From: a virus
Strand: one strand, 5' to 3'
IMG/VR virus record: IMGVR_UViG_3300010412_000003
Span: 1 to 64,000 of that record
Length of the DNA stretch: 64,000 nucleotides
The number at the start of each line of letters is the position of its first letter. Within the stretch, counting starts at the first letter, position 1. Under the pieces are notes generated by a model. It was given only the letters and a program-made list of their open reading frames with translations, did no database searches and had not been told where the DNA came from. The translations under genes were made by a program, and so were the position numbers. Positions 8,077 to 9,516 of the stretch are shown piece after piece.

Positions 8077-8104
8077 TTGACAAATAAAAAAAATCTGTTA
8101 TAAT
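8077..8104 (+). promoter_or_regulatory. sigma70/sigmaA promoter P1 of ncRNA cluster
   Basis: TTGACA-16 bp-TATAAT with TG extension; no ORF downstream. Confidence 0.75.
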
Positions 8105-8109
8105 ATTCA

Positions 8110-8190
8110 TAGTTATCCTTTTGGTTTGGTTGGTTTGTTGAAAGTCAAGGGAATTGCAGGTGGGAACTTGATGAATTCCCTTGACTTGAA
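8110..8190 (+). ncRNA. candidate small RNA: anti-SD/GU-rich 5' tail plus strong hairpin
   Basis: TAGTTATCCTTTTGGTTTGGTTGGTTTGTTG followed by stem AAGTCAAGGGAATT (8142-8155)/AATTCCCTTGACTT (8174-8187). Confidence 0.5.
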
Positions 8191-8209
8191 AATAAAATCA
8201 AGGTATAAT
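8181..8209 (+). promoter_or_regulatory. sigma70/sigmaA promoter P2 of ncRNA cluster
   Basis: TTGACT-17 bp-TATAAT. Confidence 0.75.
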
Positions 8210-8238
8210 AAATAGGAAAGTTGGACTTTTACAAAAAA

Positions 8239-8429
8239 TATAATTGGCTTTTACGCCTCTTGATCTAAATATCTGATACTGGCTGTACACTGGTGTAGGG
8301 TGGGTCGCTCTACTAGGTGAGAGGATACATCCGAGGAAGGATGGGAGTATCACCTAATCAGATGGATACCAGAGGTACACTGGTGAAGATGGGGAGACTA
8401 TCTTCCAAGGGGCATAAAAGTCAATTATA
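8239..8429 (+). ncRNA. ~190-nt multi-stem structured RNA of unknown class
   Basis: 24-bp closing stem 8239-8262/8406-8429 with G-U pairs; internal stems ATCTGAT/ATCAGAT, GTAGGGTG/CGCTCTAC, TAGGTGA/TCACCTA, GAAGATGG/CTATCTTC. Confidence 0.7.
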
Positions 8430-8434
8430 AAAAT

Positions 8435-8555
8435 GGGGTTGATCGGTTTCGACAGGTCACAGGGATTATCAGTAGGTGAAAATGCCCTTGGTGAAGACAC
8501 TGAAAATAATCGTGAACTTGTGATTTGGACAGGGGTTCAATCCCCCTCAACTCCA
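8435..8555 (+). ncRNA. ssrA: minimal tmRNA (tRNA-like domain only)
   Basis: Acceptor stem GGGGTTG/CAACTCC-A with G3-U70; D-loop ATCGGTTTCGAC; GAC + T arm AGGGG-TTCAATC-CCCCT; helix 2 AGGTCACAGG/CTTGTGATTT closed after ~55 nt. Confidence 0.85.
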
Positions 8556-8603
8556 CAGAACTTTAATAACCATTCAGATGCAATATATCTGATAAAAAAA
8601 CAA

Positions 8604-9219
8604 ATAGCATGGGTTGGTTGGATTTCCAGCAACCGTCAAGTTTCGTATAAAGGAAACAAGAAGAGTTATAAAACCTCTTCCATGTTATTTGCCAAGGAAC
8701 ATAACTTGGGTTGACTAGCCAGTAAAGTAGGGAAGAAGGGTAGTTTTGCAAACCACTGTGAGTTAGAAACGTAATCTGTCTCACCAGTTAGTAAGGCTAG
8801 CAAGTCCTTTGCAAGACTACTACGTGAAGGCAAAAATCTGGAAGCACCAGATCAGTAGAACGACTCCTACACCCAAGATATAAAATTATTGGTAAATTAT
8901 CGGTAGATGTTGGAACGTGCTATCATGGTTGGTGAATGGTCTTTGTAAAGCCACTAAAAGGTAGAAGACTAGACGGTAACTAAAACACCATGCAGGAAAT
9001 ACAATAACCTGCCTCACCAGTTCCAACAAAATTTTGAAGATTTTCAGGGAATGATAGGTTAGCCACCTAACTCTTAGGAGAGAAAGCAGATAAAAACTAT
9101 CTCCCAAGGATGGTTCTGTAGGGTACTGAGAGGAACAGACAACTGGATACTTGGGTTAGAAAAAATCCTATCCTCATGTAATGGCTTGTGGGGTTGTCAT
9201 TCCCTGAAAGTTTTCAAAA
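8604..9219 (+). ncRNA. ~600-nt large ornate ncRNA candidate (ROOL/GOLLD size class)
   Basis: No credible ORF; many stems incl. 8740-8752/8808-8820, 8908-8916/9020-9028, 26-bp 9032-9057/9194-9219 with four G-U pairs; near a tRNA. Confidence 0.7.
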
Positions 9220-9251
9220 CAAAATGAAATACAAAACCAAAGGAGATAAAA

Positions 9252-9428
9252 ATGTTTAGCGAACTTGTTGCACTTTATGCTGGATTGTTTTTTGTTGTTT
9301 TCAGTTTTGTGGTAGAACCATCAAAGAATTTTGTGTCAAAACTTTTGTTCAAAGCAATTCCATTTATTTTTGGCATGTTGTTGTTGGTATCTTGGGCAAG
9401 TTTACGTGGTTGGCTTGTTATAGTATAA
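9252..9428 (+). CDS. small two-helix membrane protein (58 aa)
   Basis: AAGGAG RBS; MFSELVALYAGLFFVVFSFVVEPSKNFVSKLLFKAIPFIFGMLLLVSWASLRGWLVIV. Confidence 0.7.
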   Translation: MFSELVALYAGLFFVVFSFVVEPSKNFVSKLLFKAIPFIFGMLLLVSWASLRGWLVIV

Positions 9429-9443
9429 AAAATGTAATAAAAT

Positions 9444-9516
9444 GCTTCCCTAGCTCAATGGATAGAGCAACGGACTTCTAATCCGTAGGTTACTGGTTCG
9501 AGTCCAGTGGGAAGTG
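9444..9516 (+). tRNA. tRNA-Arg (anticodon TCT); CCA not encoded
   Basis: GCTTCCC/GGGAAGT acceptor, TAGCTCAATGGATAGAGC D arm, ACGGA-CTTCTAA-TCCGT anticodon arm, GGTTCGAGTCC T arm. Confidence 0.95.

What the first reader, a model, noticed from the sequence alone, without database searches (positions are those of the whole stretch)
8077..9516. A dedicated non-coding RNA cluster with tandem promoters
Seen: two sigmaA-type promoters (8077-8104, 8181-8209) point into ~1.15 kb without a credible gene. Four self-contained structured units follow, separated by A-rich linkers, then one small membrane ORF and a tRNA. Inference: a polycistronic precursor cut at the tRNA-like elements (mini-tmRNA, tRNA-Arg) by host RNase P/Z to release a set of RNAs aimed at the host translation apparatus.
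Basis: partly seen in the sequence, partly recalled or inferred. Interest (0 to 1): 0.75.

Follow-up and report, generated by a model that had tools for sequence, protein, structure and literature searches.

The report
Phage operon of structured non-coding RNAs
An uncultured sediment phage carries, behind two strong promoters, a 1.5-kb operon made mostly of folded non-coding RNAs: a tag-less mini-tmRNA, an arginine tRNA and two structured RNAs that match no catalogued family and whose job is unknown.

Summary
Two near-consensus promoters (8077-8104, 8181-8209) point into about 1.15 kb with no credible gene. After it come a 58-aa membrane ORF, tRNA-Arg(UCU), a 40-aa ORF and a terminator-like hairpin.

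Two parts are of known kinds. One is the tRNA. The other is a 124-nt tmRNA-like RNA (Rfam 66.9 bits, cut-off 47) that keeps only the tRNA-like domain. That type is published for mycobacteriophage DS6A, and this scan has noted it many times on other DNA.

The rest matches no Rfam family:
- a 191-nt RNA (8239-8429), 5 nt before the mini-tmRNA;
- a 620-nt string of stem-closed modules (8598-9222).

Both fold far better than shuffles (z -8.2 and -7.7; coding controls -0.2 to -1.4). A natural variant seen in three sequencing runs keeps the fold through four compensatory pair changes (2 of 20,000 null draws reach four) and carries 1-nt indels. Contigs from metatranscriptome libraries of three studies cover parts of it.

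No relative turned up in GenBank phages, IMG/VR, JGI metagenomes or GTDB genomes.

Co-transcription and processing at the tRNA-like elements are plausible but inferred. A translation-directed role is supported only for the tRNA and the mini-tmRNA. Interest is moderate.

The parts
8077..8104 (+). Promoter P1: TTGACA, 16-nt spacer with TG, TATAAT (12 of 12)
8142..8189 (+). Strong hairpin in the P1 leader. Its 3' arm contains the -35 hexamer of P2.
   Evidence: leader 8111-8215: MFE -32.5, z -5.0
8181..8209 (+). Promoter P2: TTGACT, 17-nt spacer, TATAAT (11 of 12)
8239..8429 (+). U1, an orphan 191-nt multi-branched RNA closed by a stem of about 24 bp. It ends 5 nt before the mini-tmRNA.
   Evidence: MFE -80.5, z -8.2; minus strand -56.6; no Rfam hit at E<=10; no match in GenBank phages
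8435..8558 (+). Tag-less mini-tmRNA: tRNA-like domain plus a long P2 helix, with no tag ORF and no pseudoknot block. G3.U70 is present. CCA is not encoded.
   Evidence: RF00023, 66.9 bits, cut-off 47; 290 model positions replaced by 41 nt; ARAGORN calls no tmRNA at default settings
8574..8592 (+). Small hairpin followed by an A-rich linker. One compensatory change (8579/8587, UA to CG) is seen in a natural variant.
8601..8709 (+). Module M1: a four-way junction with an 11-bp closing stem (8601-8691), plus a hairpin at 8692-8709
   Evidence: z -5.8
8718..8893 (+). Module M2. It has a hypervariable arm (8726-8815) with three compensatory pair changes and a core (8816-8894) with no substitution between strains.
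8908..9028 (+). Module M3. The closing-helix pair 8912/9024 changes from GC to AU in the variant.
9032..9219 (+). Module M4, 188 nt, closed by a 26-bp stem. Its 3' end coincides with a joint in a relative that lacks the following ORF.
   Evidence: z -5.2; joint 9219 to 9450
9252..9428 (+). 58-aa hydrophobic small ORF with a strong Shine-Dalgarno sequence. It is absent from a related strain.
9444..9518 (+). tRNA-Arg, anticodon TCT
   Evidence: 70.3 bits
9546..9668 (+). 40-aa ORF with a Cys-rich pattern and AAGGAGG 8 nt upstream. No family hit.
9672..9703 (+). Terminator-like hairpin (12 bp) whose 3' side runs into TTTTAT. It is the probable end of the unit. The consensus scan did not call it.
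   Evidence: read; fold (control 9540-9720); not listed

Best explanation
This is a phage stable-RNA operon of about 1.5-1.6 kb. It is read on the + strand from two tandem host-type (sigma-70-like) promoters to a terminator-like hairpin near 9700.

In order, it encodes:
- a 191-nt structured RNA (U1);
- 5 nt later, a 124-nt tmRNA that keeps only the alanine-type tRNA-like domain and a long P2 helix;
- a 620-nt string of four to five independently stem-closed modules;
- a small membrane protein;
- tRNA-Arg(UCU);
- a 40-aa protein.

Inferred mechanism, processing. Host RNase P cuts at the 5' ends of the mini-tmRNA and the tRNA. RNase Z or exonucleases, plus the CCA-adding enzyme, finish their CCA-less 3' ends. 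The 24-26-bp closing stems of U1 and M4 are of the length that RNase III cuts. Together these cuts would release U1 and the module string as separate stable RNAs.

Inferred mechanism, function. The tRNA serves the phage's AGA-rich genes. The mini-tmRNA, like the DS6A RNA, competes with host tmRNA for SmpB and alanyl-tRNA synthetase and so dampens trans-translation and tagging. The two orphan RNAs are selected for their fold. My best guess is that they act in trans as protein-binding or self-assembling RNAs, in the niche of T4 RNA C/D and of ROOL and GOLLD. Their target is not known.

Shown: promoters, absence of genes, identity of the tRNA and mini-tmRNA, exceptional folding, fold-preserving variation, presence in RNA libraries.

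Inferred: a single precursor, the cutting enzymes, and all functions.
For: Promoters.

Non-coding:
- No long frame under any stop-codon reading.
- No family hits for the spurious ORFs.
- Natural variants carry 1-nt deletions at 8776, 8882, 8978, 9085, 9092 and 9160, and a 2-nt insertion behind 9117.

Identified parts:
- tRNA at 70.3 bits and tmRNA model at 66.9 bits, cut-off 47.
- G.U at the third acceptor pair in 4 of 4 aligned phage mini-tmRNAs, and two covarying T-stem pairs.

Composition: G+C is 0.40-0.47 in 8200-9200, against about 0.30 in the flanks.

Folding:
- U1: z -8.2 on + (MFE -80.5) against -5.6 on - (MFE -56.6).
- 8560-9225: z -7.65 (MFE -199.3) on + against -5.06 (MFE -179.2) on -.
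- Modules: z -2.9 to -5.8.
- Coding controls: z -0.2 to -1.4. The 58-aa ORF: +1.4.

Covariation:
- One variant lineage differs at 27 substitutions and 3 deletions over 8657-9072. It is the same in two RNA-library runs and, over the shorter stretches that the other two contigs cover, in one DNA run.
- It has four compensatory double changes in predicted pairs: 8747/8813, 8748/8812, 8755/8805 and 8912/9024.
- A second variant has one more, 8579/8587.
- In a null that keeps local substitution density, 2 of 20,000 draws reach four. Structures with the 3' partner slid by 1-3 give 0-2.
- The variant's modules keep their energy: M2 -48.5 against -49.5, M3 -35.9 against -34.2.
- There are no substitutions in 8816-8894, next to 20% divergence in 8726-8815.

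RNA libraries:
- X18: a 418-nt contig over 8657-9072.
- X20: 8652-8899.
- X17: 8744-8845 and 8816-8944, plus cover in the 8452-8572 bin. There a contig ends at 8556-8559 in letters that I recall as Illumina adapter, which is the 3' end of the mini-tmRNA.

Cassette behaviour:
- A relative's contig joins 9219 to 9450, so it lacks the 58-aa ORF.
- Another has an unlike left flank up to 8066, which is 11 nt before P1.

tRNA use: AGA is 451 of 691 Arg codons (65%) in 38 long ORFs.

Precedent: passages in PMC4131195 and PMC11915505 describe the DS6A tRNA-like-domain-only RNA and its inhibition of tmRNA in E. coli.
Against: - No direct mapping of transcript ends or strand. The runs were Logan contigs, which cannot show strand, level or true ends, and DNA can be present in RNA libraries.
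- The adapter-marked end rests on one contig and on my recollection of the adapter sequence.
- All covariation comes from one or two close lineages and is scored on a structure predicted from the reference itself.
- Two double changes break their predicted pairs (8745/8815, 8929/8979), as do five single changes.
- No distant homologue exists to test the fold.
- A distant relative of the phage (downstream-gene orthologue at 42% identity) has no RNA genes at this position. The cluster is therefore lineage-specific and could be dispensable.
- No SmpB gene lies in the 84.5 kb held, so nothing ties the mini-tmRNA to a phage partner.
- The module string has no predicted long-range closure. That weakens the idea of one integrated large RNA.
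Confidence: 0.6

Rival explanations
1. The 8598-9222 tract is one large RNA of the ROOL/GOLLD kind. On this reading it is a roughly 620-nt phage RNA that folds as a whole and assembles into an RNA-only multimer or cage beside tRNA-like genes, not a string of separate small RNAs.
For: - Size is about 620 nt, against a ROOL average of 581 nt (PMC5737381, passages).
- It is phage-borne and lies directly between a tRNA-like gene and a tRNA. ROOL and GOLLD are described as 'often near tRNA islands' (10.1101/2024.12.08.627333, passages).
- One RNA-library contig runs unbroken from M1 into M4.
- The tract folds exceptionally well (z -7.65) and has a 79-nt core without substitutions.
Against: - cmscan against all 4227 Rfam families listed no ROOL or GOLLD match at E<=10 with permissive filters.
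- Every module is closed by its own stem, and the MFE has no meaningful long-range helix.
- No pseudoknot was tested.
- A contig across modules does not prove a single mature RNA.
Confidence: 0.15
2. The structured tracts have no function in trans. On this reading they are processing or insulating spacers of a tRNA/mini-tmRNA precursor: stable hairpin modules that protect the useful RNAs from exonucleases or guide RNase III, P or Z. They are free to drift as long as they fold.
For: - The modules are stem-closed and separated by A-rich linkers.
- Parts drift quickly while keeping their pairing: 20% divergence in 8726-8815.
- The visible 3' strand of U1's closing stem differs at about half of its positions in one relative (loose end at 8426).
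- The cluster is absent from a distant relative.
Against: - About 810 nt of spacer for two small RNAs is a great deal.
- The 79-nt stretch 8816-8894 and the 69-nt stretch 8657-8725 carry no substitution, next to stretches that have diverged 6-20%. That points to constraint on sequence as well as on fold.
- The spacers in the same phage's second tRNA island are not unusually stable (z -0.7 to -1.4 on the tRNA strand). Strong folding is therefore not a general property of this phage's tRNA spacers.
Confidence: 0.15
3. The tract is a long cis-acting 5' leader that controls translation or stability of the 58-aa membrane protein. The proposed route is pairing of the P1 leader with the ORF's ribosome-binding site.
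For: - The ORF follows directly and has a strong Shine-Dalgarno sequence.
- 8105-8140 can pair with 9220-9260 at -18.8 kcal/mol.
Against: - The pairing is not distinctive. 8 of 500 shuffled leaders pair as well, and seven of the eight best sites listed for the window pair better, for example 10740 at -21.5.
- A related strain joins 9219 to 9450. It keeps M4 and the tRNA but lacks the ORF.
Confidence: 0.04
4. The tRNA-like pieces are leftovers of integration sites. On this reading they are attP copies of host tRNA or tmRNA 3' ends, belonging to the tyrosine-recombinase gene 2 kb upstream, and are not expressed genes.
For: - An integrase-family gene lies at 5422-6279 (PHROG 1, E 4.6e-61).
- The 3' 33 nt of the mini-tmRNA resemble tmRNA 3' ends in sampled bacterial genomes at 85-91%.
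Against: - Both halves of the tRNA-like domain are present and pair, including G3.U70. The tRNA is complete.
- Promoters point into the cluster.
- No sampled genome matches the 3' end exactly.
Confidence: 0.03
5. The tract codes for small proteins, or is read in another genetic code.
For: A 93-aa ORF (8433-8714) and several ORFs of 50-75 aa exist.
Against: - The 93-aa ORF overlaps the whole tmRNA-like gene and has no Shine-Dalgarno sequence.
- There are 19-28 stops per + frame, and no long frame under any single stop reassignment.
- 0 of 5 ORFs hit PHROGs or Pfam.
- Natural 1-nt indels occur.
- Neighbouring genes read normally in table 11.
Confidence: 0.02

Closest known systems
tRNA-like-domain-only (tag-less) tmRNA of mycobacteriophage DS6A (tmRNA Website; passages read in PMC4131195 and PMC11915505)
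   Same: - Phage-borne.
- Keeps the alanine-type acceptor with G3.U70, the T arm and the D-loop analogue of tmRNA.
- No tag reading frame and no pseudoknot block.
- Expected to compete with host tmRNA.
   Different: - It is 124 nt. The papers describe DS6A as 'little more than' the tRNA-like domain, and this scan's earlier notes give 63-80 nt.
- It keeps a 16-bp two-part P2 helix.
- It has an apical element with a motif shared by 4 of 4 aligned long forms (window, L005, L006, L007).
- It sits in the middle of an RNA operon, 5 nt after another structured RNA.
ROOL and GOLLD large ornate RNAs of phages and prophages (PMC5737381; 10.1101/2024.12.08.627333; passages read)
   Same: - Large (about 620 nt) and highly structured.
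- Phage-encoded and adjacent to tRNA-type genes.
- Function unknown.
   Different: - No covariance-model match at E<=10.
- Built of locally closed modules with no predicted long-range closure.
- Known from a single phage lineage.
- Multimer formation not tested.
Stable RNAs C and D (species 1 and 2) of the phage T4 tRNA gene cluster. This is recalled; one search found no paper on them. Earlier notes of this scan also name them.
   Same: Small stable RNAs of unknown function, encoded with tRNA genes in one transcription unit and released by the host's tRNA-processing enzymes.
   Different: - No sequence relation was tested or is expected.
- Here the companions are a mini-tmRNA and a single tRNA.
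- The orphan RNAs here are larger, at 191 nt and about 620 nt.
Standard one-piece tmRNA (SsrA, Rfam RF00023)
   Same: The 5' and 3' ends align to the model's tRNA-like domain at 66.9 bits, above the gathering score.
   Different: - 290 model positions (tag template and pseudoknots) are replaced by 41 nt.
- ARAGORN finds no tag peptide.
- CCA is not encoded.

Membership tests
tmRNA (RF00023), full form | tRNA-like domain: acceptor stem with G3.U70, T arm, D-loop analogue | tested here: met
   66.9 bits, cut-off 47; model positions 1-37 and the 3' end aligned; G.U at pair 3 in 4 of 4
tmRNA (RF00023), full form | mRNA-like domain with resume codon, tag reading frame and stop | tested here: not met
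   - ARAGORN calls no tmRNA at default settings.
- At a relaxed threshold it gives only a 'permuted' artefact marked 'Tag not identified'.
- 41 nt stand in place of 290 model positions.
tmRNA (RF00023), full form | Pseudoknots PK1-PK4 | tested here: not met
   Only 41 nt lie between the two strands of the P2 helix. The MFE shows a simple extended hairpin.
tRNA-like-domain-only phage tmRNA (DS6A type) | tRNA-like domain present, tag template absent, phage-encoded | tested here: met
tRNA-like-domain-only phage tmRNA (DS6A type) | Inhibits host trans-translation or binds SmpB | not testable with these tools
   Known only from the cited passage on DS6A-like RNA in E. coli.
tRNA (RF00005) | Cloverleaf with anticodon; covariance-model score above the cut-off | tested here: met
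   70.3 bits, cut-off 29; ARAGORN tRNA-Arg(tct)
ROOL / GOLLD | Match to the family covariance model | tested here: not met
   cmscan of 8550-9260 and of 7000-11000 against all 4227 Rfam families listed neither family at E<=10. That Rfam 15 holds both families is recalled; one search says the paper's authors took their profiles from Rfam.
ROOL / GOLLD | Phage or prophage location next to tRNA genes; length of about 580-800 nt | tested here: met
ROOL / GOLLD | Several multistem junctions tied together by pseudoknots; homo-oligomeric cage | not tested
   Multistem junctions are predicted, but no pseudoknot or assembly test was possible.
T4-type stable RNAs of tRNA operons | Co-transcribed with tRNA and released by tRNA-processing enzymes as stable species | tested here: inconclusive
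   - No credible terminator inside the unit; the scan's only + strand hit there, 9172-9193, is weak and lies inside M4.
- An RNA-library contig ends at the mini-tmRNA's 3' end, and another spans several modules.
- Contigs cannot show ends or strand.

The most novel reading that the evidence does not exclude
U1 and the 620-nt module string are two new classes of phage stable RNA. They are made together with a mini-tmRNA and a tRNA as one early 'RNA toolkit'. The large one would be a third, unrelated example, after ROOL and GOLLD, of a big self-organising phage RNA that works with tRNA-like RNAs or ribosomes. U1 would be a partner or chaperone of the mini-tmRNA, to which it is joined by a conserved 5-nt linker.
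Probability: 0.15. Interest if true: 0.8.

Novelty: new variant of a known kind. Interest (0 to 1): 0.5.

Why it matters
Phage tRNA islands keep turning up large or ornate RNAs of unknown function, such as T4 RNA C/D, ROOL and GOLLD. Here about 810 nt of such RNA has four things going for it:
- it is driven by two of the best promoters in the genome;
- it carries natural compensatory changes;
- it has cores without a single substitution between strains;
- it is seen in RNA libraries of three studies.

That is more support than most orphan candidates have. It also places a tag-less mini-tmRNA in a defined operon, 5 nt behind another structured RNA. This gives a concrete precursor for testing how phages make and use these tmRNA mimics. 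If the orphan RNAs prove functional, they add new families to a very short list of large bacterial or phage RNAs. If they prove to be processing filler, that would explain many similar 'ornate' tracts in phage tRNA operons.

Tried and rejected
**Homologue searches, all negative for U1 and the module string**
- blastn of 8050-9530 against 50,697 GenBank phage records gave 824 records. All 40 listed rows lie on the tRNA part.
- 8560-9250 alone gave no match at E<=0.1.
- 8105-8560 gave 11 records, all on query 417-452, which is the mini-tmRNA's 3' end.
- A pattern from the 8816-8894 core gave 1 stretch in IMG/VR, 18 in JGI metagenomes and 20 in GTDB genomes. Local blastn showed no homology in any. 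Twelve of the 20 are one conserved coding site of gammaproteobacteria.
- The twin-11-mer pattern of U1 gave 4 IMG/VR stretches, all tandem repeats inside coding DNA.
- The M4 stem pattern gave 0.
- An exact 22-mer of the mini-tmRNA gave 0.
- A DNA search of 401 genomes of one phylum, centred on the genome of L043, gave 60 genomes with short matches. Nearly all are at the mini-tmRNA's 3' end, and none is longer than 65 nt.
- This scan's own index holds no look-alike in other windows.
- These collections may leave out records close to the window.

**Protein route**
- The upstream neighbour has no relative in IMG/VR and one 53% relative on a 1.8-kb contig.
- RecJ relatives L002-L004 (43-44% identity) have 0 Rfam hits above cut-off in 53,996 nt and 0 tRNA or tmRNA genes.
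- In L004 the orthologue of the downstream gene (42% identity) is preceded by ordinary genes.
- ORF-gap and G+C-peak screens of these loci were uninformative.

**Ideas tested and dropped**
- P1-leader to RBS pairing is not distinctive.
- CsrA-type sponge: GGA is not among the trinucleotides enriched over dinucleotide shuffles. Of 20 GGA sites, 4 are fully unpaired, and most of the rest are at least partly inside stems.
- Paralogues inside the phage: none, only the units' own inverted arms and an 18-mer at 8772-8789 / 9005-9022 with E 4.
- A general 'structured RNA beside mini-tmRNA' rule: the flanks of the L006 mini-tmRNA fold like shuffles (z -1.8 and -0.5).
- The spacers of the second tRNA island of this phage are not unusually stable and have no Rfam hit other than the five tRNAs at E<=1.
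- SmpB: none in the 84.5 kb held.
- ARAGORN's 'permuted tmRNA' at a relaxed threshold is an artefact.

**Parts without cover in RNA runs**
- X18 and X20 cover nothing of the stretch other than 8652-9072 and cross-matching tRNA pieces.
- X17 has no cover over U1.
- This says nothing either way, because the flanks of the variant strain may be too diverged to be laid.
- The X18 and X20 contigs start within 5 nt of each other (8657, 8652) where a DNA contig runs on. That is at most a weak hint of an RNA end. It may equally be an assembly-graph break at the edge of a stretch shared between strains.

**Literature**
- 'mini-tmRNA' is held by 0 papers of the library searched.
- The search for T4 stable RNAs found nothing useful.
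- Supplementary files were not opened. The tmRNA database tables in the supplements of PMC11915505 could list further tRNA-like-domain-only phage entries.

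
Full report
**Source.** The window is the first 64 kb of an 84,546-bp IMG/VR virus record, rated about 59% complete. It is a low-G+C phage (0.33). It has a DnaE-type polymerase, a RecJ-like exonuclease, a DnaB-like helicase and an integrase-family gene. Words of the locus occur in metagenomes labelled marine sediment, estuary, mangrove and soil, from 7 studies.

**Observation.** The consensus scan found 17 promoter-like sites in 7500-10500, against 12.3 +/- 3.6 in shuffles.
- 8077-8104: TTGACA, 16 nt with TG, TATAAT, 12 of 12.
- 8181-8209: 11 of 12.

Over the whole record, both strands, only 15 sites reach 11 of 12 and two reach 12 of 12. From 8105 to 9251 there is no credible gene:
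- The longest open frame is 98 codons and overlaps the tmRNA-like gene.
- Each + frame has 19-28 stops.
- Reading TGA, TAG or TAA through opens nothing longer than 145 codons.
- Five spurious ORFs have no PHROG or Pfam hit.

G+C rises to 0.40-0.47 in 8200-9200, against about 0.30 beside it. The 58-aa hydrophobic ORF (9252-9428) and tRNA-Arg(TCT) (9444-9518) are as described. I read that hairpin as the terminator, although the scan did not call it.

**Known parts.** Across the window Rfam gives just two matches above gathering score:
- the tRNA, at 70.3 bits;
- tmRNA at 8435-8558, at 66.9 bits with a cut-off of 47.

The tmRNA match covers only the two ends of the model. 290 positions (tag template and pseudoknots) are replaced by 41 nt. 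ARAGORN finds no tmRNA or tag. The acceptor has G3.U70, the T arm is canonical, and the 3' end reads A-C-A-G, so CCA is not encoded.

A degenerate pattern for short tmRNA-like genes found three more in IMG/VR. Two of the three pass Rfam's cut-off. In the four-way alignment, G.U at pair 3 is kept in 4 of 4, two T-stem pairs covary, and a short apical motif is shared.

A tmRNA with only the tRNA-like domain is in print for mycobacteriophage DS6A. Those papers note that such a molecule strongly inhibits tmRNA, perhaps by titrating SmpB (passages of PMC4131195 and PMC11915505). This scan has also noted such genes in many other phages (notes not checked here). This part is therefore a new, longer member of a known kind.

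**Orphan RNAs.** U1 (8239-8429) and the tract 8560-9225 match no Rfam family at E<=10, even when scanned alone with lax filters.

| Stretch | + strand | - strand |
|---|---|---|
| U1 (8236-8432) | MFE -80.5, z -8.2 | MFE -56.6, z -5.6 |
| 8560-9225 | MFE -199.3, z -7.65 | MFE -179.2, z -5.06 |

- The + strand advantage agrees with the direction of the promoters and of the tRNA.
- Taken singly, the modules give z -5.8 (M1), -2.9 (M2), -3.1 (M3) and -5.2 (M4).
- Four coding controls give -0.2 to -1.4, and the 58-aa ORF gives +1.4.
- The tract is a chain of locally closed domains. U1 and M4 are closed by stems of about 24 and 26 bp. No substantial long-range helix is predicted.

**Natural variation.** Laying contigs of four runs revealed a second strain.
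- Over 8657-9072, one RNA-library contig (X18) differs at 27 positions and 3 single-base deletions.
- An RNA contig of another study (X20) and a DNA contig (X16) share these differences where they overlap.
- Against the reference MFE there are four fully compensatory double changes: 8747/8813 UA to GC, 8748/8812 GC to AU, 8755/8805 AU to UA, and 8912/9024 GC to AU.
- Two double changes break their pair. Three single changes keep a pair, five break one, and seven fall in unpaired positions.
- With positions re-drawn inside 60-nt bins, 2 of 20,000 draws give four or more compensatory doubles.
- Structures with the 3' partner slid by 1-3 give 0-2.
- A second variant contig adds 8579/8587 UA to CG in the small hairpin.
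- The variant folds as well as the reference: M2 -48.5 against -49.5, M3 -35.9 against -34.2.

Divergence is very uneven:

| Stretch | Changes in the variant |
|---|---|
| 8657-8725 | none |
| 8726-8815 | 18 changes in 90 nt |
| 8816-8894 | no substitution; one deletion, seen in X18 only |
| 8895-9072 | 11 changes in 178 nt |

- Single-base indels, also in a variant of M4 (9085, 9092, 9160, and +2 behind 9117), rule out coding.
- Limits: there are only one or two close lineages, and the structure was predicted from one of the compared sequences. One row of the difference table was not shown, and for two variant contigs only part of the differences was listed.

**RNA-library evidence.** Contigs from three metatranscriptome studies lie on the cluster:
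- X18: 8657-9072. This contig crosses every boundary from M1 to M4 with more than 31 nt on each side.
- X20: 8652-8899.
- X17: 8744-8845 and 8816-8944, identical to the window, plus cover in the 8452-8572 bin.

In that bin one X17 contig runs on into ten letters that I recognise, from memory, as Illumina adapter. With the usual adapter start, the insert would end at 8556, one base past the discriminator of the mini-tmRNA. That is what a short, discrete RNA would give.

These are assembled contigs. They cannot show strand, level or true ends, and RNA libraries can contain DNA. X17 also holds contigs over neighbouring coding DNA.

**Cassette behaviour.** In the DNA run:
- one contig joins 9219 to 9450, so a relative lacks the 58-aa ORF and M4 ends where the fold says it does;
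- one joins 7093 to 7580, so it lacks the 160-aa ORF;
- one has an unlike left flank up to 8066, 11 nt before P1;
- one keeps the linker and the mini-tmRNA start but has a much-changed version of the last 13 nt of U1's closing stem.

A distant relative of the phage (RecJ at 43%, downstream-gene orthologue at 42%) has no RNA genes at the corresponding place.

**Relatives.** None was found for U1 or the module string in GenBank phages, IMG/VR, JGI metagenomes, GTDB genomes, 401 sampled genomes of one phylum, or this scan's index.

**Mechanism.**
- Shown: the promoters, the lack of genes, the identity of the two tRNA-type genes, the exceptional and strand-biased folding, fold-preserving variation with cores that carry no substitution, and presence in RNA libraries.
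- Inferred from established tRNA and tmRNA maturation: RNase P cuts at 8434/8435 and 9443/9444. RNase Z or exonucleases with the CCA-adding enzyme finish the CCA-less 3' ends.
- Also inferred: stems of 24-26 bp are of RNase III size, and A-rich linkers suit single-strand endonucleases.
- These cuts would free U1 (with a 5-nt tail) and the module string.
- The tRNA fits the phage's codon use. AGA is 451 of 691 Arg codons in 38 long ORFs.
- The mini-tmRNA most likely competes with host tmRNA, as reported for DS6A.
- For U1 and M1-M4 I commit only to 'stable, fold-selected trans-acting RNAs, target unknown'. A translation target is possible but unsupported.
- The CsrA-sponge and leader-RBS ideas failed their checks.

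**Comparison and verdict.** The operon works like the T4 tRNA cluster with its stable RNAs C and D (recalled). In size and setting, its large tract resembles ROOL and GOLLD, which are described as phage or prophage RNAs often near tRNA islands. It is not a member of either family, because the covariance-model test was not met. The mini-tmRNA is a member of the tRNA-like-domain-only kind. Overall this is a new variant of a known kind: a phage stable-RNA operon with two uncatalogued structured RNAs, better supported than most orphan candidates but confined to one lineage. Interest 0.5.

Noticed in passing
own genome G000:C1:71224-72392, minus strand (outside the window; locus L047): A second RNA island lies behind a TTGACA-type promoter. 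It holds tRNA-Gly, Trp, Asn, Pro and Lys, with G+C-rich spacers of 216-363 nt (0.41-0.43) between four of them. The spacers have no Rfam hit at E<=1 and fold no better than shuffles on the tRNA strand (z -0.7 to -1.4).
   Followed up: partly
window 8601-8694: M1 is a cloverleaf-like four-way junction: an 11-bp closing stem and three hairpins, with the closing stem followed directly by CCA. ARAGORN does not call it a tRNA, even at a relaxed threshold. Two RNA-library contigs start at 8652 and 8657, inside it.
   Followed up: partly
window 8435-8558; L005 6873-6990; L006 8937-9046; L007 761-866: These are 'long-form' mini-tmRNAs of 106-124 nt. They keep a P2 helix and share a short apical motif, which may be a remnant of the region before pseudoknot 1. 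In L006 the gene sits within an array of 10 tRNAs.
   Followed up: partly
window 8426 and 8066 (loose ends in DNA run X16): A related strain keeps the linker and the mini-tmRNA start, but 7 of the last 13 nt of U1's closing stem differ. Its 5' strand could not be seen. Another contig diverges completely upstream of 8066, just before P1.
   Followed up: no
window 9121-9136: This stretch in M4 resembles, from memory only, the consensus of the 23S sarcin-ricin loop. The MFE does not fold it that way, and the asymmetry of the flanking bases does not fit. One variant changes the fourth letter of the five-letter loop-like run (9130 G to A). Nothing was tested.
   Followed up: no
window 8772-8789 and 9005-9022: An 18-nt near-repeat (16 of 18) forms the 3' strand of a helix in both M2 and M3. 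blastn E is 4, so it may be chance.
   Followed up: no
window 5363-6279: The only other 12-of-12 promoter in the record (5363-5391) drives a 285-aa tyrosine-recombinase or integrase-family gene (PHROG 1, E 4.6e-61). It lies 2 kb upstream of the tRNA-like genes.
   Followed up: partly
window 27006-31759: The RNA ligase (PF09414 plus an OB-fold domain) at 27902-29008 and the HD-domain protein at 27006-27524 are confirmed by Pfam.
   Followed up: partly
window 7101-7583: The 160-aa ORF is missing from a related strain (joint 7093 to 7580 in DNA run X16). The early region around the RNA cassette is therefore mosaic.
   Followed up: no
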